From the IMG/VR virus record IMGVR_UViG_3300008954_000020, positions 1 through 64,000 of that record: a stretch of DNA of 64,000 nt; one strand, 5' to 3'. Position numbers and translations under genes: made by a program. This stretch comes from a virus. This document shows positions 18,084 to 36,453 of the stretch, piece after piece; the first letter of the stretch is position 1, and each line of letters starts with the position of its first letter. A model generated the notes under the pieces. It had not been told where the DNA came from and ran no database searches. It was given only the letters and a program-made list of their open reading frames with translations.

Positions 18084-18093
18084 AATTTTCTAC

Positions 18094-18603
18094 TCACTCA
18101 TGTTCCCATACACCAATCCAATTACAATATGTTTCGTACTTTTTCACCTGTTCTTCATAATAATTTTCGTATGTTCCTTGGTCATTATCAATCCATGTAT
18201 CCAACCATATACAATCAAATTTTTGTGTTGGTTGCCATGTATCAATATCTGCATGAATTAAGGTGAATGTATCATCTTTAGGACAATGCGGCCATACTAG
18301 GTCAATCACTTCTTGGTGTTTTTCAACTATGGTAACTGATGTAACATCGGGGTTGTCTATAAGTTTTTGATTTACAAACCCAATGCCCAGTCCACCAATT
18401 AGAACATCACCTGTTGCATTGTCCCACAATAATTGATGCTCACGATATTCCTTTGTTGTATCTTGCATTATGGGTAAATCATTGTGGTACAAAATTGTAT
18501 ATGTGTCGAGTGGTTCTTTTGTGTTTGCAATAATATCTGTAGTAGCTTTTTTTATTTCGAAATTATCACTTACTGCTTCTAGAATATCAAATGTTAATTT
18601 CAC
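18094..18603 (-). CDS. Class I SAM-dependent methyltransferase (spermidine-synthase-like)
   Basis: VLIGGLGIG, VTIVEK, HAD, FDCIWLDTW. Confidence 0.75.
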   Translation of the reverse strand: MKLTFDILEAVSDNFEIKKATTDIIANTKEPLDTYTILYHNDLPIMQDTTKEYREHQLLWDNATGDVLIGGLGIGFVNQKLIDNPDVTSVTIVEKHQEVIDLVWPHCPKDDTFTLIHADIDTWQPTQKFDCIWLDTWIDNDQGTYENYYEEQVKKYETYCNWIGVWEHE

Positions 18604-19367
18604 CCATATGCCTTTACAATAACTCTTCCATCTGCGCCAATTCCACCATCACCAGTATTTACTCCTTTTGCACCACCGCCGCCACCGCCTGGTGCGGTTC
18701 CCGCATCTCCATCAATTTGGCCCGCATTACCGCCATCGCCGCCGGCACCACCGTCTGGGTCTGCACCATCACCACCATCGCCACCTTGGACATCATTATG
18801 ACTTCGGCCACCATTGTTGCCGGTGTTACCAGTTATTATATCTGAGTTTGATCCTGCAATGCCGCCAAGACCACCAGTAGAATAATCATCAGTTTCACCA
18901 TCCGTTTGGCCACCTTCTCCACCTTGACCACCGCCGGCATATACATTTGTGAATGTATACATTTGTCCAAGACCTCTGCCGTGGATGGTAAGAGTTGTGT
19001 CACCACCAGTTTCGCCTCTTCCGGCATTCTCGCCGTTTCCGCTCGTAACTGCTCCACCTTCACCGATATCAAAATTTATAGTATCTGATACTCGTAGGTC
19101 TGGTGCGTTCCCCGCAGCGGTGACACCATAATAACGGTATAACACATATGCACCGCCGCCTCCGCCGGCGCCTGGGGTTATTTCGGCAGTTCTACCACTT
19201 CCGATAGTTCCTCTGTGTCCACCTGCACCACCGCCACCATACATCTCTATCTCAAGATATCGAACACCTGCGGGAACAGTATAAGTTTGTGTGCCAGTTG
19301 ATGTGATGCTAGTGGTACTAAGTAACTGGAATTCTCTTGTGGTTGTTGCTTTGCTTGCACCTATCAT
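18600..19367 (-). CDS. Glycine-rich virion/fibre-associated protein
   Basis: TYTVPAGV...GGGGAGG...GGGGGAY...GADGRVIV glycine-rich domain. Confidence 0.7.
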   Translation of the reverse strand: MIGASKATTTREFQLLSTTSITSTGTQTYTVPAGVRYLEIEMYGGGGAGGHRGTIGSGRTAEITPGAGGGGGAYVLYRYYGVTAAGNAPDLRVSDTINFDIGEGGAVTSGNGENAGRGETGGDTTLTIHGRGLGQMYTFTNVYAGGGQGGEGGQTDGETDDYSTGGLGGIAGSNSDIITGNTGNNGGRSHNDVQGGDGGDGADPDGGAGGDGGNAGQIDGDAGTAPGGGGGGAKGVNTGDGGIGADGRVIVKAYG

Positions 19368-19368
19368 A

Positions 19369-19611
19369 CTATAATTCTACCCAAACGCCTTCTTCTTCCA
19401 AATATGTGTAGGTTATGTCGGTGTTTGTGTCTTCCCACTTATCTCCGCTCGATGGGGATGAAGGTTCGGACGAAGACTTAGTAAAAACTGGGCCAGAAAT
19501 CGGCACTTCAACGGACTTCCATCCTGTTCCGTCCCATTCCCAAGTGCGTTCACCGACTGAGTGTTGTGTTCCAACTGGAACTGATTCTGGAAAATTAATT
19601 ATTTTTGTCAT
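19369..19611 (-). CDS. Small fibre-associated protein
   Basis: NFP...TWEWDGTGW and PSSPSSGDKW modules typical of fibre proteins. Confidence 0.6.
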   Translation of the reverse strand: MTKIINFPESVPVGTQHSVGERTWEWDGTGWKSVEVPISGPVFTKSSSEPSSPSSGDKWEDTNTDITYTYLEEEGVWVEL

Positions 19612-19623
19612 TGTTTATGATTC

Positions 19624-21504
19624 CTATGAGAAGTTGATTCCACCAACGAATCCGTAAATTGTAGTTCCTGCATCGATTGTCATAAATGATACAATATCCG
19701 TACCAGACGCTGTAAGTGCAGGAGCATTATCTCCTGGCCATTTCACAGATGAATGCCAAGTTGTTGTGTTTGCACCACCGTTTGTAATAATGAGTGTAAC
19801 CGTTCCTGCTTTACCAGATGCGGGAGGATTGGTGAAAGTGAATTCACAGTCCCCGTTTCCAGTTACGGTCTGAACATTACCATTTTCGAAATCAATCGCA
19901 GTATTACCAGTAATAGTTCCGATAGCATTTACAGTTTCAGCATAATCTTTAAGTTCTGGACGAGTTATTTGAAGGTCGGCAAAGTTCGTGCCGGTAGTAG
20001 TTATTGCCTGTCCAGTAACTCCGCCCGCAAGCAAAGAGATTGTATCAGCACCAAAAGTAAGTTTAGTGTGGCCATCCCCTTTATGCGTTAAGTTCTCTGG
20101 TATGTAAACAGTGGGACTATTTAAATCGATTTGCATACCAGCTGTCATATTAATAGATGAATGACTATCCCGAATGTATATTGTGGAATCATTACCGGCA
20201 CTATCAATATCGCCAACTTTAAAGTTTCTATCACCCTCAAAGTCCATAATAGATGCGCCGGCTGAATTTCGAATGTGATAATTACCGCCCATATAGATGT
20301 CATTGCCAAATGTTACACCACCATACAACTGCGATGCTCCTGAAGCAGAAAGTCCAGCGGATAACTGAGGAACAGAAGAGAAAGTTTTAGTTCCTGATAT
20401 AGTTTGATTGCCTGAAGTAACTACAACAGACGAACCTGTTTGTATTCCTACACCATCGGCAAAGGTAATTCCTTCGGCTCCTAATGTTATTCCAGCAGAT
20501 GCTACAACATTACCACCGAATGTTGCGACTGGTGCAACATTAAATGTTTCACCGCCGGCAGATATACCAGACGAATCCATTGTTAGATATTCTGTACCAC
20601 TGACTTTGAAATTGATATTGCCAGCAGTCACGCCCATATAAGTTGAGGCTGCGTGGTCGAGAGATGCCAGTAATACTTCAACCGCTGAGTGTCCTGCATA
20701 TCTGTTAGAACCTATGGGCGTGGTGAATACATTTCCACTTGCGTTGGTGAATGTATTTATCTCATCCAACTTTGGCACATTAGAGCCTAAGGATAAAATA
20801 TATCTTACAGTATTATTTGGAATGCCTGGTGCGTTGACATTTAACATTGCAATAGCGATGTCATCGGATGATATATCAATGCCTTTGATGTCAGTAATCG
20901 AGCCCTGGCCGGAATAGAACGGCGAACCATCGCCTTGCCTAGAAAAATATTCAATCGAAGCCCTACCCTGTGTATTTCCATTAGAGAATTGTAGATAGGA
21001 AGTTCCCGTAATTCCCATTACTACAGGCCCATTGAACGATGCTGTTCCCGCAGCAGAAAGACCAAGAGGAATATCAACTCCAGCGGATGTTCCTACCATG
21101 AATATGGGGCCCGCACTCAGTGTCATTGTACCACTTGTGAAAACAACTTTGGTGTTGGTATCTCCAATGTGGCGGAGTCCACCAGCCATGTATATGGTGC
21201 CATCGACATTGACATTTTCACCAAATGTTGCTGTTGAACCCACATATAATGTACTGTTTCCAGTTATACCACTAGATGCAGAAAGACCAACAACATTCAG
21301 GGTGAGTGCATCATCGATTTGGTCGTGTGTTATATGTCCTGTCAGTCCATTGAAAGACAGAACGCCAGAAAGATCAACGGTATTACCATAAGTATTACCA
21401 CAAAACAAAATTCCATCTGTAGTATTTACTGCGGGTTCGCCCCATGTCAAACCAGTAGGAATGTATCCTGCTGTTGTTCCTCTTTTTAGTCTAATTGTTG
21501 CCAT
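19624..21504 (-). CDS. Tail-fibre-like protein
   Basis: N-terminal IRLKRG...LTWGEPAVN (Mtd-N-like); G/S/T-rich beta repeats; C-terminal VKWPG..APALTASGTDIVSF domain. Confidence 0.75.
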   Translation of the reverse strand: MATIRLKRGTTAGYIPTGLTWGEPAVNTTDGILFCGNTYGNTVDLSGVLSFNGLTGHITHDQIDDALTLNVVGLSASSGITGNSTLYVGSTATFGENVNVDGTIYMAGGLRHIGDTNTKVVFTSGTMTLSAGPIFMVGTSAGVDIPLGLSAAGTASFNGPVVMGITGTSYLQFSNGNTQGRASIEYFSRQGDGSPFYSGQGSITDIKGIDISSDDIAIAMLNVNAPGIPNNTVRYILSLGSNVPKLDEINTFTNASGNVFTTPIGSNRYAGHSAVEVLLASLDHAASTYMGVTAGNINFKVSGTEYLTMDSSGISAGGETFNVAPVATFGGNVVASAGITLGAEGITFADGVGIQTGSSVVVTSGNQTISGTKTFSSVPQLSAGLSASGASQLYGGVTFGNDIYMGGNYHIRNSAGASIMDFEGDRNFKVGDIDSAGNDSTIYIRDSHSSINMTAGMQIDLNSPTVYIPENLTHKGDGHTKLTFGADTISLLAGGVTGQAITTTGTNFADLQITRPELKDYAETVNAIGTITGNTAIDFENGNVQTVTGNGDCEFTFTNPPASGKAGTVTLIITNGGANTTTWHSSVKWPGDNAPALTASGTDIVSFMTIDAGTTIYGFVGGINFS

Positions 21505-21728
21505 TATCTAACCACCTTTAAGTTCTTTTTATCATCTCGCTGTTTTACAGTTATTCGCTTGTCTGTAATCAACATCTTTACCTTTTTGGTTGTTTTGTTT
21601 TTTACCAAAACCTGATTCGATCCCGTCACGGTAAGTATGGGTTCATCATGGTATATAACAACTCTATTTGCAGATGAAGCAAACGAAAGAGTAGGTTCTA
21701 ATTTATTATGAATCACAACTCTATTCAT
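21504..21728 (-). CDS. Hypothetical beta-rich protein
   Basis: Internal repeat NRVVIH/NRVVIYH; coupled to both neighbours. Confidence 0.5.
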   Translation of the reverse strand: MNRVVIHNKLEPTLSFASSANRVVIYHDEPILTVTGSNQVLVKNKTTKKVKMLITDKRITVKQRDDKKNLKVVR

Positions 21729-22180
21729 TTAGTAATCTCCGATTGAATCTTAAATTCTCCCTCAACCAATCTAGTAATATCATCTACTCCAGAACCCAAA
21801 TCTTTAATTAATTCCAAATCATATCTGTGTTCTCCAGATAGTGCATTTGATAATGCTCCAGCATCGGCAGAAATATAAATTCCACCAGTGGTTCCTACCA
21901 CTCCAGTAGTACCCGCATTAAGTACGATTCCGCCTGTAGCGGCCACACCCGTTGTTCCTGATACATAATATCCAGTAGAACCACCACCCGTTACGCTCGA
22001 AAATGCTGTGCATCCTGCAAAACTTAAAATAATATTTGAACTAGTGGCAGATGGACGGACTTGCATCTGTGCATTATATGGTGCTAAATCGATAGCAGTT
22101 CCACCCGATGTTTGATATTCTAGGTAGAGAGTCCACTTTGTTCCCTGTTCGGCATTGATGTTATACTTTCCTGCTGGCAT
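21725..22180 (-). CDS. Fibre-attachment/BppU-like beta-sandwich protein
   Basis: AGKYNINAEQG...IDL..YNAQMQVR...YDLEL...RLVEG pattern, with a G/T-rich insertion. Confidence 0.6.
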   Translation of the reverse strand: MPAGKYNINAEQGTKWTLYLEYQTSGGTAIDLAPYNAQMQVRPSATSSNIILSFAGCTAFSSVTGGGSTGYYVSGTTGVAATGGIVLNAGTTGVVGTTGGIYISADAGALSNALSGEHRYDLELIKDLGSGVDDITRLVEGEFKIQSEITK

Positions 22181-22196
22181 AGTTATTCCTCCACCT

Positions 22197-22203
22197 TATT
22201 TAT
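22197..22203 (-). promoter_or_regulatory. Late promoter core ATAAATA
   Basis: Directly upstream of the GGAGG SD of the fibre module. Confidence 0.6.
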
Positions 22204-23414
22204 CGTTTTACTTTCTTTCTCTTTTTGAAAGTTCTGGGCTTTTTGGTTTGTTCTACGGATAAAGACATTTCTTGTTGTCTTTTTTGCCTCATAGCAGTCA
22301 TTTTTTCTTTATGTTGTTTATTGGCTGCTTCATATTGTTCTAAGTTTTTACGAAGTCGTTCCTCATATCCATCGGGGAGTTTCATTGACAATAACTTTCT
22401 GGTATGTCGCAATCCTTCATCAAATTCATGAACATAAAATGCTGTAGCAGAAAGTTCATCTAAAACCATGAAGTCGTAAACATCTTTATTTACAAACAAA
22501 ATATCCCATTCAGGAAATTTAATACTCGAAGCTATCTTTGCATACAAATATGCAAGTCTAGGTTGTTCTTTCATGCGAAGATATCTAGACAATTCGTGGA
22601 GTGATTCTGCTCGAATTGGCCGGAAATTCCATGCATTTGTCATGGCCATTACAACTTCTTCCATTGGTTTTTCCAACAACATGGTACACAATCCTATTCG
22701 ATAAAGAGAAAAGTATGTCTCTTCTTCCCATCCGCCCATTGCTGCTCTCTTTTTATATGATTCAATTGCTTTCTCATATTGATGTGAATCAAAATATGAC
22801 TGGGCCAAATAAAACTGATATCTAGAATTATTGGGTTCTTCCTTTAGGGCCTCTTCCAACATGATAGCATCTTTTGTGTATTTTTCAACGGGGGTTTGTC
22901 CCACATTTCTTGCACCCAAAGTTCTGGCCTCTACAGTCCAATCTCCAAATAGTTTTTGTAGTTGGGGTGGTCGGTTTTCTTTGAGCCGAGGGAATTCGTG
23001 TAATACACCCTCATACATCCAACTTCCATCATTCTTGAATGTTTGAATTCTCCACCATTCAAGATTTCCTCTTTTTAATCTAACTTCATAACCTTCTTGA
23101 TTCATGTCATTTGGCCATTTTAAATCACCAACAACCTTATCATCTGCATCAATCATAAAGATATAATCTGTTTTGCCGTTACAAGCATCAAGTGCTAGGC
23201 TTCTGTTGTGACTGAAGTTAACCCATTCGTGTTCTAGAAGTTCGCCAGGAATTCCCCTTTCTTCAAAGAAGTCTTTAATGATTTCTTTGGTGTTGTCGGT
23301 TGAACCTGTATCACAAATGCACCAGTAATCGATGTGGTCTGCAACCGATTCTAAACATTCATGGATGATATGGGACTCATCTTTCACTATCATTGATAAA
23401 CATATTGTACTCAT
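22200..23414 (-). CDS. GT2 glycosyltransferase with C-terminal TPR repeats
   Basis: CLSMIVKDE, DTGSTD, FSHNR, IDADD, GVLHE; TPR-like RYQFYLAQSY and YFSLYRIG helices. Confidence 0.88.
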   Translation of the reverse strand: MSTICLSMIVKDESHIIHECLESVADHIDYWCICDTGSTDNTKEIIKDFFEERGIPGELLEHEWVNFSHNRSLALDACNGKTDYIFMIDADDKVVGDLKWPNDMNQEGYEVRLKRGNLEWWRIQTFKNDGSWMYEGVLHEFPRLKENRPPQLQKLFGDWTVEARTLGARNVGQTPVEKYTKDAIMLEEALKEEPNNSRYQFYLAQSYFDSHQYEKAIESYKKRAAMGGWEEETYFSLYRIGLCTMLLEKPMEEVVMAMTNAWNFRPIRAESLHELSRYLRMKEQPRLAYLYAKIASSIKFPEWDILFVNKDVYDFMVLDELSATAFYVHEFDEGLRHTRKLLSMKLPDGYEERLRKNLEQYEAANKQHKEKMTAMRQKRQQEMSLSVEQTKKPRTFKKRKKVKR

Positions 23415-24310
23415 AATAATTCCTTTTGTTGGTTAATCCAGTCTTCTAATTCCACTTTTGGTTTCCATAATAAAAGATTCTTTGCTTTATTTATGTCAGA
23501 TAAACTGTTCTCTATTTCGGTCGGGCGGGGTTCGATAAGTCGTTGATTGTCTGAAATCATATCAGCGATTTCCTTTATAGAATAAGATGTTCCTGTACCA
23601 ACATTAATAATTTCTCCCGATTTAATTTCTTGTTTAAATGCAGCAATCATGTTTGCTTCAACAACATCTGACACATGAATAAAATCTCTTCGTTGTGTGC
23701 CATCAGGAACAATAGTCAATGGTTCATGGTTTTTCTTTTGGTCTAAAAACTTTCCAATGACTGGAACATATGGGCCACGGATAGGTTGCCGTGCTCCATA
23801 TACATTGAAGTATCGAAATATTACAGTTTCAAGTCCATACACGGACGAATACATTTTGCATAGTTCTTCTCCTGCAACCTTGGTAACTGCATACGGGTTC
23901 AAACAATCATTCTGCATATCTTCTGTGTTTGGAATATTATTTAATCCATATGCGGCCGCAGTTGATGACATTATAATTCGCTTTACTCCATTTTCTCTTG
24001 CGGCTTGAAGAATATTACATGTTCCTAATATATTGGTTTGAACTGCAAGTTGTGGATTTCCTATTGTAGATTGTATTTTTGATTCTGCAGCAAGGTGAAA
24101 CACAACATCAATATTTTCGAATGAATTTTTTATCCATCTATATTTTGCAATGTCCAAGTTTTTATATTCTGCATTTGGATTTTTGTAATATTCTTCATGA
24201 GAATCTGATGATTCGTTATCGATGACTAAAACCTTATGTCCTTCATCAATCAAGGCATCCACAATATGCGACCCGATAAATCCTGCACCGCCTGTTACTA
24301 AAAATTTCAC
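23411..24310 (-). CDS. NAD-dependent NDP-sugar epimerase (GalE-like)
   Basis: TGGAGFIG, YAVTK, RYFNVYG, RDFIHVSD. Confidence 0.9.
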   Translation of the reverse strand: MKFLVTGGAGFIGSHIVDALIDEGHKVLVIDNESSDSHEEYYKNPNAEYKNLDIAKYRWIKNSFENIDVVFHLAAESKIQSTIGNPQLAVQTNILGTCNILQAARENGVKRIIMSSTAAAYGLNNIPNTEDMQNDCLNPYAVTKVAGEELCKMYSSVYGLETVIFRYFNVYGARQPIRGPYVPVIGKFLDQKKNHEPLTIVPDGTQRRDFIHVSDVVEANMIAAFKQEIKSGEIINVGTGTSYSIKEIADMISDNQRLIEPRPTEIENSLSDINKAKNLLLWKPKVELEDWINQQKELL

Positions 24311-24337
24311 TATAATGTTTCCTTTGTCACGAATTTT

Positions 24338-26448: not shown

Positions 26449-26463
26449 AACATATTCTCCTTC

Positions 26464-27291: not shown

Positions 27292-27707
27292 TTTTTAAGT
27301 TTATTTCTAATTTCGGTTGTTGATGTTTGTTTCGAATATGGAAAATATATGATTTTTACTCCATAATTTTTTAATGTGTTTTCATACTCTATCCATTTGG
27401 ATGATTCATACCAATCATCCCCAACAAATAATATATCATATTTAATTTTTTCGTATGCCTTTACTTTGTCTATTTCATTCTGAGGAATAACAGTATCGAC
27501 ACACCGTATATTACGAACTATTTCAACACGATGCTCATATGGTATAATACACTTTTCCTTTTTGTGTGAAACTATATCATCTATCGTAACGGCCACAATT
27601 AAATGGTCACACATCGATTTTGCATTTCTTAATATATTTAAATGTCCCACATGGAACATATCAAATGAACCACAAGTATATCCTATTATTTTCTTATCTG
27701 GATTCAT
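27288..27707 (-). CDS. tagD: Glycerol-3-phosphate cytidylyltransferase-like (TagD)
   Basis: GSFDMFHVGH (HxGH), VGDDW, TSTTEIR. Confidence 0.88.
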   Translation of the reverse strand: MNPDKKIIGYTCGSFDMFHVGHLNILRNAKSMCDHLIVAVTIDDIVSHKKEKCIIPYEHRVEIVRNIRCVDTVIPQNEIDKVKAYEKIKYDILFVGDDWYESSKWIEYENTLKNYGVKIIYFPYSKQTSTTEIRNKLKK

Positions 27708-30145: not shown

Positions 30146-30151
30146 TGTCTC

Positions 30152-30799
30152 CTAAACGGAATAATTTATTCCTGCCACTACATCGTTCCATATAATCCCT
30201 GCATCATAGACACCTCTATATGATATACCACGGGATTCTATAAAATTTCTAATATGGAATTCAATTGAAATACTTTCATTACACAGGGTATCCAAATCAA
30301 CCTCATCTAAATAATCTATTAAATTCTTCGTGTGTATAAAGAATGTTCCAGTCCAAAAAGAATTCTCATTGGGATTGGCAGGGCTCCCAACTTTAAAAAG
30401 ATTACTTGGTTCAGACAAAAACGAATCAAACATTCCACTGTGTCGTATAACCGTTCTTGGTTCATGGTGAACATACCAATCATAATTCTTCATCTTATCT
30501 TTGACATAACGCATCATTTCAATACAACCAGCACCTTTATTAATTTTTCCATAAGAATTTAGTTTGGTATTGTATATTTTTTCGGCAGACTTTGGTATCA
30601 AGTTTATAATGGATTCTGGTAGTTCTTCTTCACTGTTCACTGTATTATCAAAATAATAACAATCAGAATTTTCAATAAAATCTTTAATCTTTGACAAAGA
30701 AGAAAGACCATCACAAATCCACCCCCTCCGATGTTTTAATACATCTTCGTTGTTAATGGTTTTGTAAGATGTTTGTAGTCCTAACAATATGTGTTTCAT
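30152..30799 (-). CDS. Hypothetical protein in glycan locus (possible GT)
   Basis: FDNT...NKGAG...SIE pattern; location within the locus. Confidence 0.45.
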   Translation of the reverse strand: MKHILLGLQTSYKTINNEDVLKHRRGWICDGLSSLSKIKDFIENSDCYYFDNTVNSEEELPESIINLIPKSAEKIYNTKLNSYGKINKGAGCIEMMRYVKDKMKNYDWYVHHEPRTVIRHSGMFDSFLSEPSNLFKVGSPANPNENSFWTGTFFIHTKNLIDYLDEVDLDTLCNESISIEFHIRNFIESRGISYRGVYDAGIIWNDVVAGINYSV

Positions 30800-31377
30800 A
30801 ATATTGTCTTTGATAATGAGGGGTAATATGTTCTATCACCACCATCGATGACTTCTTTACAAAGAAGTTCAAAATTGATATTGTTTTCTTTTAGGGTCGG
30901 TGCAATTTTCTTTTTGTTGTACTTCAACATCCAATCTTGGTTGTCTCTCTTTTCCCAACCACCTTCAAACAAAACCACTGGATTACCTGTCACTTTGTCG
31001 AAGAAATCAATCAGAGTTTCACCCGTATTTGAAATATCAAGATGTATAAATTCACTGGGGACATTTAAATCCAACCAACTATCCACTGACATCTTTTGCA
31101 CTGTGATTGTATCCATCAAACCCAATGCATCCATATTGGATTCGAACTGTTCCTGAGAAACACTAGAGTACTCATACAAATCAAACAAATCTATTGCGAT
31201 AACATTCGCCCCGACTTCTTTGGCAGCCATGGTAAGATACGCAGTAGAAAATCCATTCAGAACACCGATGTCATGAATTATTTTGGGCCGATGCTTCAAT
31301 ACCTGTTCATACATTACAACACCAAACTGGTGGGTGTATGAAGAGGGAAGATTTATATGTTTAAGTTCTCTGGTCAT
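30796..31377 (-). CDS. Class I methyltransferase (Methyltransf_24-like)
   Basis: DIGVLNGFST, AIDLF, FIHLDISN. Confidence 0.75.
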   Translation of the reverse strand: MTRELKHINLPSSYTHQFGVVMYEQVLKHRPKIIHDIGVLNGFSTAYLTMAAKEVGANVIAIDLFDLYEYSSVSQEQFESNMDALGLMDTITVQKMSVDSWLDLNVPSEFIHLDISNTGETLIDFFDKVTGNPVVLFEGGWEKRDNQDWMLKYNKKKIAPTLKENNINFELLCKEVIDGGDRTYYPSLSKTIL

Positions 31378-32197
31378 TACAAAATTCCAATAACGAAATA
31401 TATTCACTCGCACACTTTTCTAGTGTAAGGTTCTCTAGTATGTATTCTCTTGGTTTGAATGATTGTAGTTGGTTCAAGAAGAGATTAAAACAACCCAAAT
31501 CTGGTGACTTGATTCCGCATCGACCATCGAAATATGGAGCAGAAGATGCAGGAGCAGAAATGCCGGGCCTATCATCCCAAACCTGTTTGTCTAGAACATA
31601 CAAAGGAAGATTCATGGATAACATTTCTTGATATGCTATACCTTGACTTTCTGTTGCAGTTATTGTTACACCAAATCTTGAAGATTGCGCCAACTGAATA
31701 AATTCATCTTCACTATAACTTCCATATGTTATTTGTTTATAGGTCAATGACTTTTCTTCTAATATGGAAATTAATTCTTCCAGTTTTTCGGCCGGCCCGT
31801 TCTTAAAATAAATCAAACAATCGCTGGTTGGTTCGCTATCAGAAGGTATGAATCTTTCAGTTTCTACACCAGAGGCCCAGACATCAATGGTGTGTTTTGA
31901 ATCTAGGTATTCGTAGTAAACATCTTTTACCCACTGTGATGGGACAACTAATCTTCTTGGTGTTTCCCAAAAAGAAGGATTTACATCACACGGCAAAACA
32001 AACAGATTTGGCCCTAATAAAAAATTATCTCCGCAATCTTGGGGGACATTTTGTAGACATCCCGTATAATCTGTTGTAACATTTTCTTTATAATCAACCC
32101 CCAACCGTTCAAGTCCGAGTAATAGATTCGAACAAACTTTGCCTGGGCCATTTGTGGGTGTAGTATTATTAAAATATAATCCTACCTCATTTAACAT
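31361..32197 (-). CDS. GT-B (GT4-like) glycosyltransferase
   Basis: VVPSQWV, GVETERF, ESQGIAYQE (EX7E). Confidence 0.75.
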   Translation of the reverse strand: MLNEVGLYFNNTTPTNGPGKVCSNLLLGLERLGVDYKENVTTDYTGCLQNVPQDCGDNFLLGPNLFVLPCDVNPSFWETPRRLVVPSQWVKDVYYEYLDSKHTIDVWASGVETERFIPSDSEPTSDCLIYFKNGPAEKLEELISILEEKSLTYKQITYGSYSEDEFIQLAQSSRFGVTITATESQGIAYQEMLSMNLPLYVLDKQVWDDRPGISAPASSAPYFDGRCGIKSPDLGCFNLFLNQLQSFKPREYILENLTLEKCASEYISLLEFCNDQRT

Positions 32198-32831
32198 AAA
32201 ATGCATCTCCCCATGTCCCGCCGGCCCAATTCTCTACTACTTTTTTAAATCCGTAGGTTGATAGACATTCATCTATCTCAGAAACCAATGGACATTTTTC
32301 ATAAACTTCATCTCTGTTTACTTCGGAGTAGATACAATCTATGTGTTGTAAAGAATTGACAGCACCTTTGAATACTTCTAATTCATATCCTTGAACATCA
32401 ATATTAATCATATTGTATTTTTGGATATCAATGTCTTCATTCTCGATTAGGGTATCCAATGTTGTCATGTTTACTTTTATTTTATCTTTGAATTGTATGT
32501 GTGGATATTGTTCTAGGTGTTTCTTTGGTGCAAGAATAGAACTAGACTGGCCCCGATATAATTCTGCATTAGCACCTTCAAATTCAGAAATATACATTTC
32601 AATTTCTTTTGTTTCTGACCCCAGTGCAGTTTCAAACATCAATGCGTTTTTGTCTACAATAGTTTCCTTCATCTTTTTAAAATGTCTAGGAACAGGTTCA
32701 ATTAAAATAAAATCTTTTACTCCAGATTGTCTTAATGGAAGATATTCTTGGCCGTAATGGGCACCAATTTGTATTACACCTCGGACATTTATATTAAAAT
32801 GAGAAAGCAGTTGTGGTATATCAATTAACAT
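32187..32831 (-). CDS. FkbM-family O-methyltransferase
   Basis: IGAHYG, IEP, SSSIL, TLD, IDVQGYELEV. Confidence 0.88.
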   Translation of the reverse strand: MLIDIPQLLSHFNINVRGVIQIGAHYGQEYLPLRQSGVKDFILIEPVPRHFKKMKETIVDKNALMFETALGSETKEIEMYISEFEGANAELYRGQSSSILAPKKHLEQYPHIQFKDKIKVNMTTLDTLIENEDIDIQKYNMINIDVQGYELEVFKGAVNSLQHIDCIYSEVNRDEVYEKCPLVSEIDECLSTYGFKKVVENWAGGTWGDAFYVK

Positions 32832-33664
32832 TAAATTTGAATCCAATCTTCGGGGAACATATCTTTCGTATCTTTAGATGGGTCGGTAAACCATTTCGAT
32901 GGATACATCACAATTTTATCTTCATTCTTGTTTAACCATGATGCCCACCAAGCGAAGGTGCTATTAGGAATTATATCATGTTTACAACAAGACATCAAGT
33001 GTAAATAGTCAATATATTTGTGTCCTGCATAAGATTTGTCAACTATAAAGAATCGGTCTTGCCATGTCTTAAAGTTTTCTTTGCACCATTCTATATCATC
33101 TGAGAAAACATAGAAATATGCATTGTCTACTTTTTTGCTGATTTCATCAATACATTTATTAAAGTAGTCCATTCCCAAATTTTCGAAGAGGTTATCTGTT
33201 AGATAATCTGCTCTTCTAACATTAATCATAACTGAATTACAAGAAAGAATTTCTTCTTTCAATTTAAGAGTTTTGGGTTCAACTATATCGGGGAATGTGA
33301 ATTCCTCTCGAATAGAATCGGAAATGTTTTCAAAATACTTGTGTGTTTGCCAATATCCAATAAGAAGATAATCATTCTCACCCGATAGTGTTGCATCCAT
33401 CAACATATCACAAAAATGAAAATATGGTTCTTGTACTGGAATAACATTAGAAGGTGCATTTTCAGTAGTAACCATCTTTTCTTTTAACTTGGGAAAGAGA
33501 TTAAGTTCATAATCTCTAAAAACATGCACAAAACCCGGCGTTCTATTTTCTAGAAACGAAGTGTCTAGTAACATTTCATTATTGTTTTTTTCTTCTAGAC
33601 TTCTGCCCAGTGCATATTGGAACATTTGATTTCCAAGTCCGCCCATTAATCTAACAATTATCAT
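32831..33664 (-). CDS. GT11 alpha-1,2-fucosyltransferase-like
   Basis: GGLGNQMFQYA, GYWQ, NVRRADY, FSDD, NSTFAWW. Confidence 0.88.
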   Translation of the reverse strand: MIIVRLMGGLGNQMFQYALGRSLEEKNNNEMLLDTSFLENRTPGFVHVFRDYELNLFPKLKEKMVTTENAPSNVIPVQEPYFHFCDMLMDATLSGENDYLLIGYWQTHKYFENISDSIREEFTFPDIVEPKTLKLKEEILSCNSVMINVRRADYLTDNLFENLGMDYFNKCIDEISKKVDNAYFYVFSDDIEWCKENFKTWQDRFFIVDKSYAGHKYIDYLHLMSCCKHDIIPNSTFAWWASWLNKNEDKIVMYPSKWFTDPSKDTKDMFPEDWIQI

Positions 33665-34725
33665 GATATCATTTCCCTGACAATCTCTCTAATGTTTTTG
33701 GTTATATTCCAATCAGGATAATCCTTCTTAAACTTATCCAAATTACTGATGTACCAAATATGGTCACCAATTCTATTTTCATCTGAGATGGTATAGTTGT
33801 TCCAATCACTCCCCATTTCTTCGTTGATAATATCAATTACTTCCATCATGGAAACTGAATTTTCTCTTCCGCCTCCCATGTTATAAACTGATGCTGGGAT
33901 TGGGTTTTGATGATAGTGCCAGAAAGCATTTACCATATCCCAAGAGTCAATGTTATCTCTTACTTGTTTTCCTTTGTAACCAAAGACAGTATATGGTTTA
34001 TCGTTCTTCATGCACTTGATTAGATAAGACAAAAATCCGTGAAGTTCTGCACCCGAATGTTTTGAACCTGTCAAACACCCACCACGAAAACAAACCGTGT
34101 TCATATCATGGTATCTACCATATTCCTGAACCATTACATCTGCTGCAACTTTCGATGCACCAAATACAGAATGTTTACAACCATCAATTGACATGTCTTC
34201 ATCTACAGAATAAAGTTCACCTGTCTTTTTATCATATGCTTCGTATCGGGTATCTAATTCTTTAATTTCAAAATCACAATTATAAATTGCATTCGGTCTA
34301 TCACCATACACTTTATTTGTTGATGTGAAAATAAAGGTTGCATCTTTGCAATGTTTCCTTGTCAATTCTAAAAGATTCAAAGTTCCAAGTGCGTTAATAG
34401 TAAAATCTGTAATGGGTTCTTTCACGGCCCAATCATGAGAAGGTTGTGCTGCTGTGTGAATAACACATTCTATATTAGAACCATACTGTTCGAACACCCG
34501 CTCCATAGATACCATATCTCTAATATCAAAATCATATTGTTTATAGTTTTTAATTGTTCCCATGAGATGTTTCAAATTCTTTCTAGTTGAAGCACCATCT
34601 CCAAAAAAGTATGACCTCATATCATTATCGATACCAAGGATGTCATATCCTTTTTTATCGAAGAACAAACAAGATTCAACACCAATCAAACCACAAGACC
34701 CAGTGACTATAACATATTTTTTCAT
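33661..34725 (-). CDS. NDP-sugar 2-epimerase (CDP-paratose/tyvelose epimerase-like)
   Basis: TGSCGLIG, HTAAQPSHD, STNKVYG, QEYGRY, GKQVRD, RIGDHIWY. Confidence 0.82.
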   Translation of the reverse strand: MKKYVIVTGSCGLIGVESCLFFDKKGYDILGIDNDMRSYFFGDGASTRKNLKHLMGTIKNYKQYDFDIRDMVSMERVFEQYGSNIECVIHTAAQPSHDWAVKEPITDFTINALGTLNLLELTRKHCKDATFIFTSTNKVYGDRPNAIYNCDFEIKELDTRYEAYDKKTGELYSVDEDMSIDGCKHSVFGASKVAADVMVQEYGRYHDMNTVCFRGGCLTGSKHSGAELHGFLSYLIKCMKNDKPYTVFGYKGKQVRDNIDSWDMVNAFWHYHQNPIPASVYNMGGGRENSVSMMEVIDIINEEMGSDWNNYTISDENRIGDHIWYISNLDKFKKDYPDWNITKNIREIVREMIS

Positions 34726-35351
34726 ACTGATTCTTTCTTTCTAAAATGTATTTTTGTCCACGGAAGATTTGCCATATCATTTTGATAAAACCAAACCGTT
34801 CCTTCGGGTAAAATAACAGTAAAGTCTTTTTGTATTTCTGCTGTTGCGACATCACAGTGCCACTTTTTATTAACAACCCATTCATGCATTTCTTCTATAC
34901 ATCTTTTTACATATTCTTCACTCATATAAACAACAGCATGAAGTGATGTCATATATGAAATTTTTAAAAAGTTTTCTTTATATTGTTCTATAGTAAGTGG
35001 GTGTGACATTCTGGAAGCCCTTGCATTTGCTTCATTTATTGGCCAAGAAGTAGAACCAAGATATACAGCATCTACTCCATCGGGGACATCTAGAACTTGT
35101 GAACAACTGTCGGTGTATGCGACATCATCTTCTAAAATTAAAAACGGAAGTCCGTTAGCTAGTCCCCTTTCTAATGTTTTGATATGACTCATACCGCAAC
35201 CATAAAAATATGGTTGTGCTTTTATAGCGGAAACTCGTTCATGATTTTTTATATTTAACTCTTCGAAAAGATTTTCCATGTTCTCTTTTCTATCAGTTTT
35301 CTCGTCCAAGTTTATCCAATATGTTTTTAATGTTTGAAGGTCAAGTTTCAT
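34722..35351 (-). CDS. GT25-like glycosyltransferase
   Basis: YWINL...R, GCGMSH, LILEDD, VYLG. Confidence 0.8.
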   Translation of the reverse strand: MKLDLQTLKTYWINLDEKTDRKENMENLFEELNIKNHERVSAIKAQPYFYGCGMSHIKTLERGLANGLPFLILEDDVAYTDSCSQVLDVPDGVDAVYLGSTSWPINEANARASRMSHPLTIEQYKENFLKISYMTSLHAVVYMSEEYVKRCIEEMHEWVVNKKWHCDVATAEIQKDFTVILPEGTVWFYQNDMANLPWTKIHFRKKESV

Positions 35352-35997
35352 ATTGCATACCCACTTTACCCCGTTCGGTTTCCGTGCTTCCCCAAAACTG
35401 GTCAGCATATGGTTTAAAAGGCCCTTGGTATGGGTGTAATTTGGTATAATGATTTGGAATAAAATAGAAACTAGGATATATTGCTAGTTTATTATATTTT
35501 AATTCATGAACCGACTGTGTTAAGAATAGTGGGCCCACTGTCTTCCACGCTGTTAACGGGCCACAATGAAGCGCTTCTCCATAAAGATTGTGTACTTTGT
35601 TTACTAGATGCCACATCAATTCGCACCCCTGTACACAACCCAAATAACCAGCAGCAATCAACTGTCCACGAATTAATTCGTTTTCGTAACAACTGAAACT
35701 ATCATTCTCTAAAAGATAATCATCTAAAGGCCTCAAACAAACACAATCTGCATCGAGAAAAAACCCACCAAACTTTTGGAGGATTTCATATCGTGCTATA
35801 TCGCACTTACCATTCCACTCGGGCATGGCATCGTATTGTTGTTGGTTGTGGAGTCCTTTTGGAAAATGTTCTGCTATTGTTTCTTCGTTCCAGAACATAT
35901 AATCCCAATCGGGGTGGGATTCTTTCCATGTATTCATCATTTCAACGGGGGCTTGTTTAGGGCCTACCCATAACTGGTGCATCACTTTTGGTATCAT
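35341..35997 (-). CDS. GT32 (OCH1-like, DxD) glycosyltransferase
   Basis: IPKVMHQLW, DIARYEIL..FGGFFLDAD, TVGP. Confidence 0.88.
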   Translation of the reverse strand: MIPKVMHQLWVGPKQAPVEMMNTWKESHPDWDYMFWNEETIAEHFPKGLHNQQQYDAMPEWNGKCDIARYEILQKFGGFFLDADCVCLRPLDDYLLENDSFSCYENELIRGQLIAAGYLGCVQGCELMWHLVNKVHNLYGEALHCGPLTAWKTVGPLFLTQSVHELKYNKLAIYPSFYFIPNHYTKLHPYQGPFKPYADQFWGSTETERGKVGMQYET

Positions 35998-36012
35998 AAT
36001 ATAAAATCCTAA

Positions 36013-36411: not shown

Positions 36412-36453
36412 GATTTATCTCTTCTTCCATGATTAATGTTCAAACACTTCCCT

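What the first reader, a model, noticed from the sequence alone, without database searches (positions are those of the whole stretch)
18094..35997. Candidate phage virion-glycosylation system: a 15-gene glycan locus abutting the fibre module
Seen: 15 tightly packed genes (22200-35997) encoding sugar-nucleotide enzymes, six recognisable glycosyltransferases plus two GT-like unknowns, two methyltransferases, TagD and LicD. The run ends in a GT2-TPR gene that sits directly against fibre genes. No flippase, Wzy, ligase or undecaprenyl-linked initiating transferase is present, and I see no evident TM segments, so it does not look like a host O-antigen conversion locus. CTAAATA late-like motifs lie just upstream (36032-36038, 36455-36461), although both fall inside coding sequence. 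Known: GT2-TPR enzymes (SunS/flagellin type) glycosylate proteins, and virion glycosylation is described for some mycobacteriophages and giant viruses. Inference: a soluble pathway that builds a methylated, phospho-alditol-decorated glycan on virion proteins of a T4-like phage.
Basis: partly seen in the sequence, partly recalled or inferred. Interest (0 to 1): 0.88.

Follow-up and report, generated by a model that had tools for sequence, protein, structure and literature searches.

The report
Phage glycan island with protein glycosyltransferase
An uncultured marine T4-like phage carries a 16-gene sugar-building island that ends in an enzyme of the kind that puts sugars on proteins, directly before its fibre genes. 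It therefore probably sugar-coats its own particle, but no experiment has shown this.

Summary
There are 16 ORFs, not 15. All lie on the minus strand, all are soluble, and they fill 22200-35997 between regA and a fibre module that precedes gp43.

Five are glycosyltransferases above Pfam cut-offs, and two more are GT-like leads. The rest are three SDR sugar-nucleotide enzymes, a DegT aminotransferase, a TagD-like cytidylyltransferase, a LicD protein, two methyltransferases (one weak) and one unknown.

New evidence:
- The terminal GT2-TPR is closest, by profile and by fold, to the protein and peptide glycosyltransferases GmaR, SunS and ThuS.
- Its bacterial homologues sit beside Thr-rich collagen-like genes in 30 of 80 loci.
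- It is a positionally conserved anchor in this phage clade. The regA-gp43 gap is 19-31 kb in four relatives, filled with largely different glycan genes, and always ends in this enzyme followed by fibre-type genes.
- Late-promoter-like NATAAATA boxes precede the SDR/GT2-TPR pair and the next gene, a p132/BppU_N-like fibre-anchor protein.
- G-x-[ST]-[GA] is about three times over-represented in this phage's fibre and baseplate proteins, but not in T4's.

Virion glycosylation is the best reading (about 0.55) but is not demonstrated. That all 16 genes serve one target rests on position alone. The scan has noted the same arrangement on other phage DNA many times. Glycan clusters in cyanomyoviruses are already published, with a different interpretation.

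The parts
35341..35997 (-). 218-aa DXD glycosyltransferase (Gly_transf_sug / Caps_synth-like); first island gene, 15 nt after regA
   Evidence: Pfam PF04488 49.1 bits; no TM
34722..35408 (-). 228-aa GT25-like glycosyltransferase
   Evidence: Pfam PF01755 33.5 bits; phrog_24091 and phrog_2835
33661..34725 (-). 354-aa SDR nucleotide-sugar epimerase/dehydratase; specificity unassigned
   Evidence: Pfam Epimerase 120 bits; all NCBIfam equivalogs below cut-off
32831..33664 (-). 277-aa GT11 (alpha-1,2-fucosyltransferase family)
   Evidence: Pfam PF01531 114.5 bits; homologues in 103 phage records, mostly cyanomyoviruses, at 37% identity or less among named cyanophages
32187..32846 (-). 219-aa FkbM-family methyltransferase
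   Evidence: Pfam PF05050 70.2 bits; kept at 67% identity in relative L099
31361..32206 (-). 281-aa unknown; GT-B-like as a lead only
   Evidence: No Pfam or PHROG match; Atlas feature hits to viral 'glycosyltransferase' clusters at 0.99, nearest Pfam-bearing clusters Glycos_transf_1
30796..31413 (-). 205-aa probable methyltransferase (weak)
   Evidence: Pfam Methyltransf_24 23.7 bits, below the 26.3-bit cut-off
30152..30799 (-). 215-aa unknown
   Evidence: No family match; two paralogue-like matches in L004
28613..30145 (-). 510-aa LicD-family phosphotransferase; the LicD match lies in the C-terminal half
   Evidence: Pfam PF04991 32 bits at aa 331-363; 56% identical to a gene of the unrelated phage G001
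27694..28629 (-). 311-aa GT-B glycosyltransferase (Glyco_trans_1_2)
   Evidence: Pfam PF13524 48.3 bits; 72% identical to the G001 gene
27288..27707 (-). 139-aa TagD-like cytidylyltransferase (a CDP-glycerol or CDP-alditol type donor is inferred)
   Evidence: Pfam PF01467 89.4 bits; TIGR01518 95 bits, below the 165-bit cut-off; 66% identical to the G001 gene
26464..27291 (-). 275-aa unknown; GT-A-like as a lead only
   Evidence: No Pfam or PHROG match; Atlas structure rows to GT2 clusters, TM 0.54-0.58
25453..26448 (-). 331-aa RmlB-like NDP-hexose 4,6-dehydratase
   Evidence: TIGR01181 272 bits, full length, below the 365-bit cut-off; 85-87% identical in L098 and L099
24338..25471 (-). 377-aa DegT/PseC-type sugar aminotransferase
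   Evidence: Pfam PF01041 266.8 bits; 86-89% identical in L098 and L099
24342..24349 (-). AATAAATA late-promoter-like box, 39 nt before the SDR start, overlapping the last codons of the DegT gene and running into the 27-nt DegT-SDR gap
   Evidence: Same motif and spacing class as the boxes before gp18 (57022) and gp22 (51459). TATAAATA lies 30 nt before the SDR homologue in G004
23411..24310 (-). 299-aa GalE/LegB-like SDR paired with the GT2-TPR; proposed maker of the priming sugar donor (inferred)
   Evidence: Pfam Epimerase 199 bits; an SDR sits directly upstream of the GT2-TPR in most relatives, but its type varies from 23% to 57% identity
22200..23414 (-). 404-aa GT-A + TPR protein-type glycosyltransferase; the conserved anchor of the island
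   Evidence: Pfam GT2 43.5 bits plus TPR. PDB profile hits: GmaR 4.6e-17, SunS 3.5e-11, ThuS 1.3e-8. AF2 pLDDT 92.4. Foldseek top hits SunS/ThuS at 7e-17 to 3e-15, next GT2 enzymes only about 1e-6 to 1e-5. DxD IDADD invariant. Found upstream of gp43 in 21 of 80 related loci by tblastn, and as an ORF in 19 of them by HMM
22197..22204 (-). GATAAATA late-promoter-like box, 24 nt before the 151-aa gene
   Evidence: GATAAATA lies 26 nt before fibre genes in G002 and G004
21725..22180 (-). 151-aa Ig-like, p132/BppU_N-like fibre-anchor protein with a Gly/Ser/Thr-rich loop; candidate acceptor
   Evidence: AF2 pLDDT 89.9. Foldseek top hits are T5/DT57C tail-tip chains of 137-140 aa at 1e-6 to 1e-5, and BppU_N and minor tail proteins in BFVD. 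T5 p132 function from PMC10038345. Follows the GT2-TPR at 2-45 nt in 19 of 27 loci. Highest G-x-[ST]-[GA] density in the record, 6 observed against 1.2 expected
21504..21728 (-). 74-aa ORF conserved after the 151-aa gene in close relatives
   Evidence: 44-89% identical in L097-L100 and L104; no family match
19624..21504 (-). 626-aa fibre-like protein
   Evidence: C-terminus matches tail-fibre PHROGs 9017 and 7760; only 58% identical in L005, where gp43 is 96% identical; G-x-[ST]-[GA] 14 observed against 4.4 expected
18600..19367 (-). 255-aa glycine-rich tail protein
   Evidence: Pfam Gly_rich_2 60.3 bits; phrog_863 'tail fiber assembly'
18094..18603 (-). 169-aa methyltransferase-like ORF that closes the fibre module
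   Evidence: phrog_15480 at 2e-19

Best explanation
The region is a phage-encoded, cytoplasmic protein O-glycosylation system for outer virion proteins.

Proposed priming module (inferred to be late-expressed): the GalE/LegB-like SDR (23411-24310) makes or adjusts a nucleotide-sugar. The GT-A+TPR enzyme (22200-23414) uses its TPR part to hold a protein substrate and puts the first sugar on Ser/Thr in Gly-x-Ser/Thr-Gly/Ala contexts. Candidate acceptors are the fibre-anchor protein encoded next (21725-22180), the fibre proteins downstream, and baseplate and fibre proteins encoded elsewhere.

Proposed extension: the 14 upstream genes supply donors and extend the glycan stepwise on the protein, with no lipid carrier.
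- An NDP-4-amino-4,6-dideoxyhexose from the RmlB-like dehydratase plus DegT.
- A CDP-activated alditol or glycerol phosphate from the TagD-like enzyme, transferred by LicD.
- Fucosyl-type and other transfers by GT11, GT25, the DXD GT, the GT-B enzyme and two GT-like unknowns.
- O-methylation by FkbM.

The island's content differs between relatives while the anchor stays. Each phage lineage would therefore display its own glycan 'serotype' on its adsorption apparatus.

Shown: enzyme families, solubility, fold kinship, conserved position, turnover of the island, motif enrichment. Inferred: the acceptor, the order of steps, the glycan composition, the timing and the biological role.
For: 1. The GT2-TPR is nearest to known protein and peptide glycosyltransferases.
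- PDB profile search: GmaR 4.6e-17, SunS 3.5e-11, ThuS 1.3e-8.
- The high-confidence model (pLDDT 92.4) matches SunS and ThuS over the full length at 7e-17 to 3e-15. Teichoic-acid GT2 enzymes (TarS, RmlT) reach only about 1e-6 to 1e-5.
- GmaR glycosylates flagellin (PMC9638930).
- SgtA, a GT-A+TPR enzyme encoded just upstream of bclA3, O-GlcNAcylates Thr/Ser in G-x-T repeats (PMC7157674).

2. Of 80 bacterial loci with full-length homologues (23-46% identity in the best segment), 34 have a collagen-like (G-x-y) run of 8 or more within 5 kb. In 31 loci the repeat is Thr-rich, and in 30 of those 31 it lies within 1.5 kb of the GT gene, although only 32% of flank bases do.

3. Clade-wide anatomy.
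- regA-gp43 is about 1.3 kb in cyanophage S-SM2 but 19-31 kb here and in G002, G003 and G004.
- Content upstream of the anchor is almost wholly different, yet again glycan genes: SDRs, methyltransferases, GT2, GT10, GT11, GT47, DegT.
- The genes downstream are tail-fibre or collagen-like fibre genes.
- The GT2-TPR is immediately followed by the p132/BppU_N-like gene in 19 of 27 loci and in 8 of 8 closer metagenome relatives.

4. All island proteins lack TM segments. Only one TM candidate was seen in the three other islands.

5. NATAAATA boxes lie 39 nt before the SDR/GT2-TPR pair and 24 nt before the fibre-anchor gene, as before gp18 and gp22.

6. G-x-[ST]-[GA] counts against within-protein shuffles:
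- 102 observed against 33.9 expected in 10 fibre/baseplate-type proteins of this phage.
- 2 against 3.9 in 13 of its enzymes.
- 21 against 21.0 in 15 T4 structural proteins.

7. No glycocin-like Cys peptide lies nearby. No thymidylate-synthase-family gene was found in four records.
Against: - There is no chemical or proteomic evidence of any modified virion protein.
- Kinship with SgtA itself was not tested, because no SgtA sequence was at hand.
- The collagen-like fibres beside the enzyme in G002, G003 and G004 are not Gly-x-Thr type: the Y position is Q, K, D or P. The simplest 'SgtA on G-x-T collagen' picture therefore does not transfer directly.
- In one subclade the p132-like gene lies about 5 kb beyond gp43, not next to the enzyme. 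Some relatives have no fibre gene between the enzyme's neighbour and the dUTPase gene. The adjacency may therefore reflect shared synteny rather than function.
- The link between the 14 upstream genes and the GT2-TPR rests on position only. Those genes lack late-type boxes, and a perfect sigma-70-like site sits inside LicD.
- The set of 'outer' proteins used for the motif count was partly chosen after seeing their scores, and there is only one control phage.
- Soluble or peripheral GTs can also act on lipid-linked host glycans. Comparable clusters in cyanomyoviruses are conventionally read as host-surface genes (PMC1079782, PMC12801897).
- The record is only about 57% complete.
Confidence: 0.55

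Rival explanations
1. Two separate systems. The conserved SDR + GT2-TPR pair adds a simple sugar to virion or other phage proteins. The variable 14-gene block upstream is an unrelated cargo island, for example one that remodels host surface glycans or nucleotide-sugar pools during infection, and merely occupies the same permissive slot.
For: - Late-type boxes are found only before the last two island genes.
- The upstream block is mosaic and exchanges modules independently. The TagD-GT-LicD block is shared at 56-72% identity with a non-T4 phage that lacks the GT2-TPR. The same block is absent from the closer relative L099.
- GT11, GT25 and SDR homologues occur in cyanomyovirus clusters that have no GT2-TPR and lie among auxiliary metabolic genes.
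Against: - In all four complete regA-gp43 intervals, glycan genes run without a gap up to the GT2-TPR despite complete turnover of content.
- No membrane component for export was found in them, apart from one TM candidate in G003.
- A single priming GT gives no reason for the clade-wide retention of a large, diversifying glycan gene set at exactly this place.
Confidence: 0.2
2. Host cell-surface remodelling, the classical 'LPS gene cluster' reading for T4-like cyanophages. The soluble enzymes would act at the inner face of the membrane on host lipid-linked O-antigen, capsule or S-layer glycan intermediates and use the host's own export machinery. The GT2-TPR would modify a host surface protein such as flagellin or pilin. 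The effect would be to block superinfection or change grazing.
For: - Published interpretation of comparable clusters in P-SSM2, S-SCSM1 and S-SCSM2R (PMC1079782, PMC12801897).
- Many bacterial O-antigen GTs are peripheral, not integral.
- The GT2-TPR family keeps a conserved basic C-terminal tail that could bind membranes.
- Most island genes lack late-type promoters.
Against: - The anchor enzyme is nearest to protein and peptide GTs, not to polysaccharide or teichoic-acid GT2 enzymes.
- It is tied in position to phage fibre genes, not to auxiliary metabolic genes.
- No initiating phosphoglycosyl transferase, flippase, polymerase or ligase was found.
- A lytic T4-like phage gains little from a slow rebuild of the host envelope.
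- Candidate acceptor motifs are enriched in the phage's own outer proteins.
Confidence: 0.15
3. DNA hypermodification. The transferases would glycosylate modified bases in phage DNA, working with the neighbouring dUTPase-like and DUF1599 (Nmad1-like) genes and the dCMP deaminase.
For: - DUF1599 and a dUTPase/dCTP-deaminase-like gene lie between the fibre module and gp43.
- Phage GTs that build glycans on DNA are known; Pyle et al. 2024 is cited in PMC12619734.
Against: - No thymidylate-synthase/dCMP-hydroxymethylase family gene in this record or in G002 (87% complete), G003 or G004.
- The dUTPase-DUF1599-gp43 trio is conserved whatever the island holds.
- The anchor GT has a TPR protein-binding domain and protein-GT kin.
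- Sixteen genes including LicD/TagD and FkbM go far beyond known DNA glycosylation sets.
Confidence: 0.04

Closest known systems
Clostridioides difficile SgtA with BclA3 (exosporium collagen-like glycoprotein); PMC7157674
   Same: - Soluble GT-A domain followed by TPRs.
- The gene lies immediately upstream of a surface-fibre protein gene.
- SgtA is shown to add the initiating O-linked sugar to Thr/Ser in Gly-x-Thr/Ser-Gly/Ala peptides.
- Bacterial homologues of the phage enzyme sit beside Thr-rich collagen-like genes in 30 of 80 loci.
   Different: - Direct sequence kinship to SgtA was not tested here.
- The phage's neighbouring fibre genes are not Gly-x-Thr collagens.
- The phage enzyme has an extra long helix and a conserved basic C-terminal tail.
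- It heads a 14-gene extension and donor set; for BclA3, the cited paper reports that no extending enzyme could be identified in vitro.
GmaR (Listeria flagellin O-GlcNAc transferase) and the SunS/ThuS glycocin S-glycosyltransferases
   Same: These are the best sequence-profile and fold matches. They share the GT-A + helical-repeat architecture and act in the cytoplasm on protein or peptide acceptors.
   Different: - 14-19% identity in the structural alignments.
- No anti-repressor domain as in GmaR.
- No Cys-bearing glycocin precursor gene nearby.
Mycobacteriophage virion glycosylation (Freeman et al. 2023, PMC10527164; cited in PMC12619734 and PMC12801897)
   Same: Phage-encoded glycosyltransferases are proposed (here) or shown (there) to decorate the phage's own structural proteins.
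   Different: - There, as summarised in PMC12619734, glycans sit on the C-termini of capsid and tail-tube subunits, and individual phages are reported with about two GT genes (PMC11256854).
- Here there are 16 genes, with their own sugar-nucleotide and phospho-alditol branches.
- The proposed targets are fibres, collar and baseplate.
- The phage is a marine T4-like myovirus.
- The island is a hypervariable locus anchored by a TPR enzyme.
'LPS' / cell-wall synthesis and modification gene clusters of T4-like cyanomyoviruses (P-SSM2, S-SM2, S-SCSM1, S-SCSM2R); PMC1079782, PMC12801897
   Same: Large clusters of epimerases, GT11/GT25-type transferases and TagD-like genes in marine T4-like phages. 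GT11 homologues occur in 103 phage records.
   Different: - Those clusters lie among auxiliary metabolic genes (pstS, phoA and hli in S-SM2), not in the regA-gp43 slot, which is about 1.3 kb there.
- They lack the GT2-TPR: no cyanophage hit at 1e-5.
- They are interpreted as host-surface genes.
Giant-virus glycosylation machineries (chlorovirus capsid glycans; mimivirus fibril glycans with viosamine-type sugars). From my own knowledge, not checked here.
   Same: Virus-encoded soluble sugar-nucleotide pathways (4,6-dehydratase plus aminotransferase), methylated sugars, and clade-specific glycan gene clusters that decorate virion fibres or capsids.
   Different: These are eukaryotic viruses with different enzymes. 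No homology was tested.

Membership tests
GT-A + TPR protein/peptide glycosyltransferases (GmaR, SunS/ThuS, SgtA type) | N-terminal GT-A (GT2) catalytic domain with a DxD motif | tested here: met
   Pfam GT2 43.5 bits against a 23.3-bit cut-off; IDADD invariant in 29 homologues
GT-A + TPR protein/peptide glycosyltransferases (GmaR, SunS/ThuS, SgtA type) | C-terminal TPR or helical-repeat domain fused to the GT | tested here: met
   TPR Pfam matches at aa 180-225, all below cut-offs; the model shows helical repeats 175-342; TPR structures are matched
GT-A + TPR protein/peptide glycosyltransferases (GmaR, SunS/ThuS, SgtA type) | Nearest solved relatives are protein/peptide GTs rather than polysaccharide GT2 enzymes | tested here: met
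   GmaR 4.6e-17, SunS 3.5e-11, ThuS 1.3e-8 by profile; SunS/ThuS 7e-17 to 3e-15 by Foldseek against about 1e-6 to 1e-5 for RmlT/TarS. NCBIfam SunS equivalog scores only 43 bits against a 350-bit cut-off, so it is not a SunS equivalog
GT-A + TPR protein/peptide glycosyltransferases (GmaR, SunS/ThuS, SgtA type) | Gene lies next to the gene of its protein substrate | tested here: inconclusive
   Next to the p132-like and fibre genes in 19 of 27 phage loci, but separated in one subclade. Bacterial homologues lie next to Thr-rich collagen-like genes in 30 of 80 loci. Substrate identity is unproven
GT-A + TPR protein/peptide glycosyltransferases (GmaR, SunS/ThuS, SgtA type) | Transfers sugar to Ser/Thr/Cys of a protein | not testable with these tools
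   Needs an enzyme assay or mass spectrometry
GT-A + TPR protein/peptide glycosyltransferases (GmaR, SunS/ThuS, SgtA type) | Direct sequence homology to C. difficile SgtA | not tested
Clostridia homologues at 24-27% identity with adjacent collagen-like genes were found
Phage virion glycosylation systems | Phage-encoded GT genes placed with structural genes | tested here: met
Phage virion glycosylation systems | Late expression of the GT genes | tested here: inconclusive
   Late-type NATAAATA boxes precede the SDR/GT2-TPR pair and the fibre-anchor gene only; no transcript data
Phage virion glycosylation systems | Glycans detected on virion proteins | not testable with these tools
   No cultured isolate; no proteomic data
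Cyanomyovirus 'LPS/CWSM' gene clusters | Cluster of epimerase and glycosyltransferase genes in a marine T4-like myovirus | tested here: met
Cyanomyovirus 'LPS/CWSM' gene clusters | Same genomic setting (hyperplastic region with auxiliary metabolic genes) and same gene set | tested here: not met
   The S-SM2 cluster lies beside pstS/phoA/hli, 37 kb from gp43. Its regA-gp43 gap is about 1.3 kb. No GT2-TPR in cultured cyanophages
O-antigen / serotype-conversion loci (Wzx/Wzy, ABC or Gtr type) | Integral-membrane flippase, polymerase, GtrA/B/C or initiating phosphoglycosyl transferase | tested here: not met
   No TM segment in any of the 16 proteins or the flanking genes; one TM candidate among about 95 ORFs in three related islands
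Phage DNA glycosylation systems (T4 alpha/beta-GT type) | Pathway for a hydroxymethylated base (thymidylate-synthase-family hydroxymethylase) | tested here: not met
   PF00303 is absent from G000, G002, G003 and G004; the control rings in 10 of 14 genomes. The records are incomplete (33-87%)

The most novel reading that the evidence does not exclude
A whole clade of abundant, uncultured marine T4-like phages carries an O-antigen-like 'serotype' locus for its own particle. This is a 19-31 kb hypervariable, horizontally shuffled glycan island in the regA-gp43 slot. Its products would be attached by one conserved SgtA/GmaR-like priming enzyme to G-x-S/T-G/A sites on the collar, fibres and baseplate. 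Related phages would then differ mainly in the complex glycan coat of their adsorption apparatus; in this phage that coat would be methylated, amino-dideoxyhexose-bearing and phospho-alditol-bearing.
Probability: 0.4. Interest if true: 0.85.

Novelty: new variant of a known kind. Interest (0 to 1): 0.62.

Why it matters
Phage virion glycosylation has been shown experimentally only in mycobacteriophages, and there with small gene sets. Large glycan clusters in marine T4-like phages have been unexplained since 2005 and are usually assigned to host-surface change.

If this clade coats its fibres and baseplate with lineage-specific glycans, several things follow:
- Glycan diversity becomes a new axis of phage host range, particle stability and escape from whatever recognises virions in seawater.
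- It would explain why a replication-module gap has grown into the most variable part of these genomes.
- It would provide a set of soluble, lipid-independent protein-glycosylation enzymes.

The GT2-TPR family is very large in metagenomes: more than 6000 proteins at E 1e-5 or better among the 8000 candidates scored. The question therefore concerns many phages, not one.

Tried and rejected
- Megablast of 18000-36500 against the phage collection: no match.
- Single-sequence scan of viral contigs with the GT2-TPR: nothing, because the peptide patterns were too specific. Relatives were reached through gp43 instead.
Contexts of the closest GT2-TPR homologues (P0005, P0006) were reached instead by a metagenome scan.
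- Sequencing runs: no RNA holder listed, so nothing can be said on expression. Laying contigs of four marine DNA runs only showed that near-identical pieces of the island occur in other samples.
- tblastn of the 151-aa protein against the phage collection: no match.
- Glycocin reading rejected: the small neighbouring ORFs (74, 80 and 61 aa) contain no Cys.
- DNA-glycosylation reading judged unlikely.
- 'Gly-x-Thr collagen fibre' as acceptor in this clade: rejected for G002, G003 and G004, whose collagen-like fibres have Q/K/D/P, not Thr, at the Y position. The window phage has no collagen-like fibre at all.
- RmlA-type nucleotidyltransferase (PF00483): none in the 102.6-kb record. The NDP-hexose precursor must come from the host or from the missing part of the genome.
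- Literature searches for a published description of this arrangement in marine T4-like phages found none. The 'regA' term also matched 'regardless', so one search was uninformative.

Full report
**What is there.** The window is the first 64 kb of a 102.6-kb IMG/VR virus record estimated 57% complete. Nearly all genes lie on the minus strand. The order is that of a T4-like phage of the cyanophage-related branch:
- terminase, sheath, portal, protease, scaffold, major head protein and a tube-like protein;
- uvsY, dCMP deaminase, uvsW, gp55;
- gp47/gp46, RNase H, gp45, gp44, a GroES-like gene, a conserved 368-aa protein, gp62 and regA.

gp43 lies at 14499-17051 and is about 51% identical to cyanomyovirus polymerases. 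No cultured phage is close at the DNA level.

Between regA (36013-36411) and gp43 lie 19 kb that T4 lacks. In the cultured cyanomyovirus S-SM2 the same gap is about 1.3 kb.

**The island.** From 35997 down to 22200 there are 16 co-oriented ORFs with overlaps or gaps of at most 27 nt.
- Above Pfam cut-offs: a DXD transferase, GT25, GT11, a GT-B (Glyco_trans_1_2) and a GT2+TPR enzyme; LicD; a TagD-like cytidylyltransferase; an FkbM methyltransferase; three SDR epimerase/dehydratases; a DegT aminotransferase.
- One further methyltransferase match is below its cut-off.
- NCBIfam places one SDR nearest dTDP-glucose 4,6-dehydratase and the aminotransferase nearest the PseC/LegC/4-amino-4,6-dideoxyhexose transaminases. 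All scores are below equivalog cut-offs, so exact sugars cannot be named.
- Two unknowns look GT-A-like and GT-B-like only as Atlas leads. One 215-aa ORF is unassigned.
- No protein has a TM-like segment.
- No RmlA-type nucleotidyltransferase is in the record.

**The fibre module.** Nineteen nucleotides after the GT2-TPR gene comes a 151-aa ORF.
- Its model (pLDDT 89.9) best matches 137-140-residue chains of the T5 and DT57C tail tip, and BppU_N-like and minor tail proteins.
- In T5, the Ig-like, BppU_N-related p132 forms the collar that anchors the long tail fibres (PMC10038345). Assigning those chains to p132 is my inference from their length.
- It is followed by a 74-aa ORF, a 626-aa protein with a tail-fibre C-terminus, an 80-aa ORF, a glycine-rich tail protein and a methyltransferase-like ORF.
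- Then come the dUTPase-like gene, DUF1599 and gp43.
- In locus L005, where gp43 is 96% identical, these fibre genes are only 58-64% identical. This is the pattern expected of adsorption genes.

**What the terminal enzyme is.**
- A profile of 29 homologues hits GmaR (4.6e-17), SunS (3.5e-11) and ThuS among solved structures.
- The model is confident (pLDDT 92.4). Its full-length fold matches are SunS and ThuS (7e-17 to 3e-15). Teichoic-acid GT2 enzymes come about ten orders of magnitude later.
- The DxD motif and other GT-A residues are invariant.
- GmaR glycosylates flagellin (PMC9638930).

Notes from earlier agents of this scan named C. difficile SgtA as the nearest characterised case. I read the paper. 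SgtA is a GT-A+TPR enzyme encoded just upstream of bclA3. It adds O-GlcNAc to Thr or Ser in peptides such as G-A-T-G and G-P-T-G (PMC7157674). I could not align SgtA itself, so I tested the idea independently:
- A scan of representative bacterial genomes found full-length homologues, at 23-46% identity in the best segment, in Mycobacterium, Streptomyces, Bacillus, Clostridia, Chloroflexia, Chlamydiae and Proteobacteria.
- 34 of the 80 loci kept have a collagen-like run within 5 kb.
- In 31 loci the repeat is Thr-rich. In 30 of those 31 it lies within 1.5 kb of the GT gene, although only 32% of flank bases lie that near.

The family is therefore tied to Gly-x-Thr surface proteins well beyond phages.

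**Clade-wide picture.** Eighty related contigs were fetched through gp43 at 57-96% identity.
- The GT2-TPR (38-50% identical) lies upstream of gp43 in 21 of them by tblastn. Most of the rest have too little upstream sequence to judge.
- Three larger records allowed the full regA-gp43 interval to be read. It is 31, 25 and 30 kb, with 28-36 co-oriented ORFs.
- Upstream of the GT2-TPR almost nothing is homologous between the four phages. Even so, a Pfam tally of the 74 ORFs gives SDRs, several methyltransferase families, GT2, GT10, GT11, GT47, Nucleotid_trans, RXYLT1_C, DegT and a UDP-GlcNAc 2-epimerase.
- Downstream lie collagen-like and other tail-fibre genes.
- An SDR almost always sits directly before the GT2-TPR, but its type changes from 23% to 57% identity.
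- The p132-like gene follows the enzyme at 2-45 nt in 19 of 27 loci. In one subclade it lies about 5 kb past gp43.

Closer relatives (GT2-TPR 70-91% identical) show module-level mosaicism.
- L099 keeps the FkbM-281aa-MT-215aa block and the RmlB-DegT pair, but has other DNA in place of the LicD-GT-TagD-275aa block.
- That LicD-GT-TagD block recurs at 56-72% identity in a 162-kb phage that has neither gp43, regA nor the GT2-TPR.

This is the behaviour of a hypervariable surface-glycan locus with a fixed anchor.

**Timing signals.** NATAAATA occurs 15 times on the coding strand.
- It lies in the spacers before gp18 and gp22, as expected for T4-type late promoters.
- It lies 39 nt before the SDR/GT2-TPR pair and 24 nt before the p132-like gene.
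- Similar boxes precede the SDR homologue in G004 and the fibre genes in G002 and G004.
- No such box is suitably placed for the 14 upstream genes.
- A perfect sigma-70 consensus lies inside the LicD gene.

No RNA data could be found.

**Candidate acceptors.** Another first-reader note on this genome proposed a G-x-T/S motif in virion proteins. I counted G-x-[ST]-[GA] against within-protein shuffles:
- 10 fibre/baseplate-type proteins: 102 observed against 33.9 expected. The highest density is in the 151-aa protein, 6 against 1.2.
- 13 enzymes of the phage: 2 against 3.9.
- 15 T4 structural proteins: 21 against 21.0.

PHROG matches confirm that several of the enriched proteins are baseplate wedge or fibre/spike proteins. 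The set was partly chosen after seeing the scores and there is one control phage, so this is supportive, not decisive. The 151-aa family keeps an invariant Thr in a G-[VI]-T-G-G-G motif. Against a simple transfer of the SgtA picture, the collagen-like fibres of G002, G003 and G004 are not Thr-rich.

**Reading.** The best explanation (0.55) is a cytoplasmic protein O-glycosylation system for outer virion proteins.
- A conserved, probably late, priming pair (SDR + GT2-TPR) starts the glycan.
- A lineage-specific set of donor-making and extending enzymes completes it.

Rivals:
- The anchor pair and the upstream island are functionally separate (0.2).
- The classical host-surface reading of cyanophage 'LPS' clusters (0.15; PMC1079782, PMC12801897).
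- DNA glycosylation (0.04). No thymidylate-synthase-family gene is present in four records.

**Novelty.**
- Glycan clusters in marine T4-like phages are known, but in cultured cyanophages they lie elsewhere, lack this enzyme and are read differently.
- Virion glycosylation is shown for mycobacteriophages (cited).
- I found no paper describing a TPR-GT-anchored hypervariable island in the regA-gp43 slot.
- Within this scan the same arrangement has been noted on many other phage genomes, so this window is one member of a recurrent class.

Noticed in passing
window 29274-29301 (minus strand): A perfect 12/12 sigma-70 consensus (TTGACA, 16-nt spacer with TG, TATAAT) lies inside the 510-aa LicD gene, between its N-terminal half and the LicD-matching C-terminal half. 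It could drive an early internal transcript or a short C-terminal product.
   Followed up: no
window 22200-22330 (C-terminus of the GT2-TPR): The GT2-TPR family keeps a basic C-terminal tail (F-K-x-R-K-K-x-x-R) after a long helix and a variable low-complexity linker. It is conserved in 29 homologues. Its role is unknown: membrane, nucleic acid or prohead targeting are possible.
   Followed up: no
window 18094-18603: A 169-aa methyltransferase-like ORF (phrog_15480, 2e-19) closes the fibre module, with homologues in 7 related loci. It might methylate a fibre protein or a sugar.
   Followed up: no
window 36834-37940: A 368-aa protein lies between the GroES-like gene and gp62. It has a marginal Pfam DruA match (27.4 bits) but a full-length phrog_19197 match (1e-141). 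S-SM2 has a 352-aa 'putative cytoplasmic protein' in the same slot.
   Followed up: partly
L004 10007-13637 (record G001) versus window 27288-30145: A LicD - GT-B - TagD block is shared at 56-72% amino-acid identity with a 162-kb, 96%-complete phage that has no gp43, regA or GT2-TPR. There it sits inside an even larger glycan locus.
   Followed up: partly
L088/L091/L092 (G002, G003, G004), genes just downstream of the GT2-TPR: Collagen-like tail-fibre genes with 53-56 G-x-y triplets whose Y position is mostly Q, K, D or P, not Thr. This is unlike the Thr-rich collagen genes beside the bacterial homologues of the enzyme.
   Followed up: partly
G000 65939-84321 (L002) and window 19624-22180: G-x-[ST]-[GA] is about three times over composition-based expectation in fibre and baseplate proteins of this phage. 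It is at expectation in T4 structural proteins.
   Followed up: partly
L095 (Tunturiibacter phage Tunturi_5, PP885688.1 37023-38126): The only cultured-phage homologue covering 80% or more of the GT2-TPR (37% identity) is annotated 'beta-1,4-glycosyltransferase'. It lies after a nucleotidyltransferase gene and about 4 kb from a large tail-fibre gene, with four ~280-aa hypothetical genes of near-equal length between.
   Followed up: no
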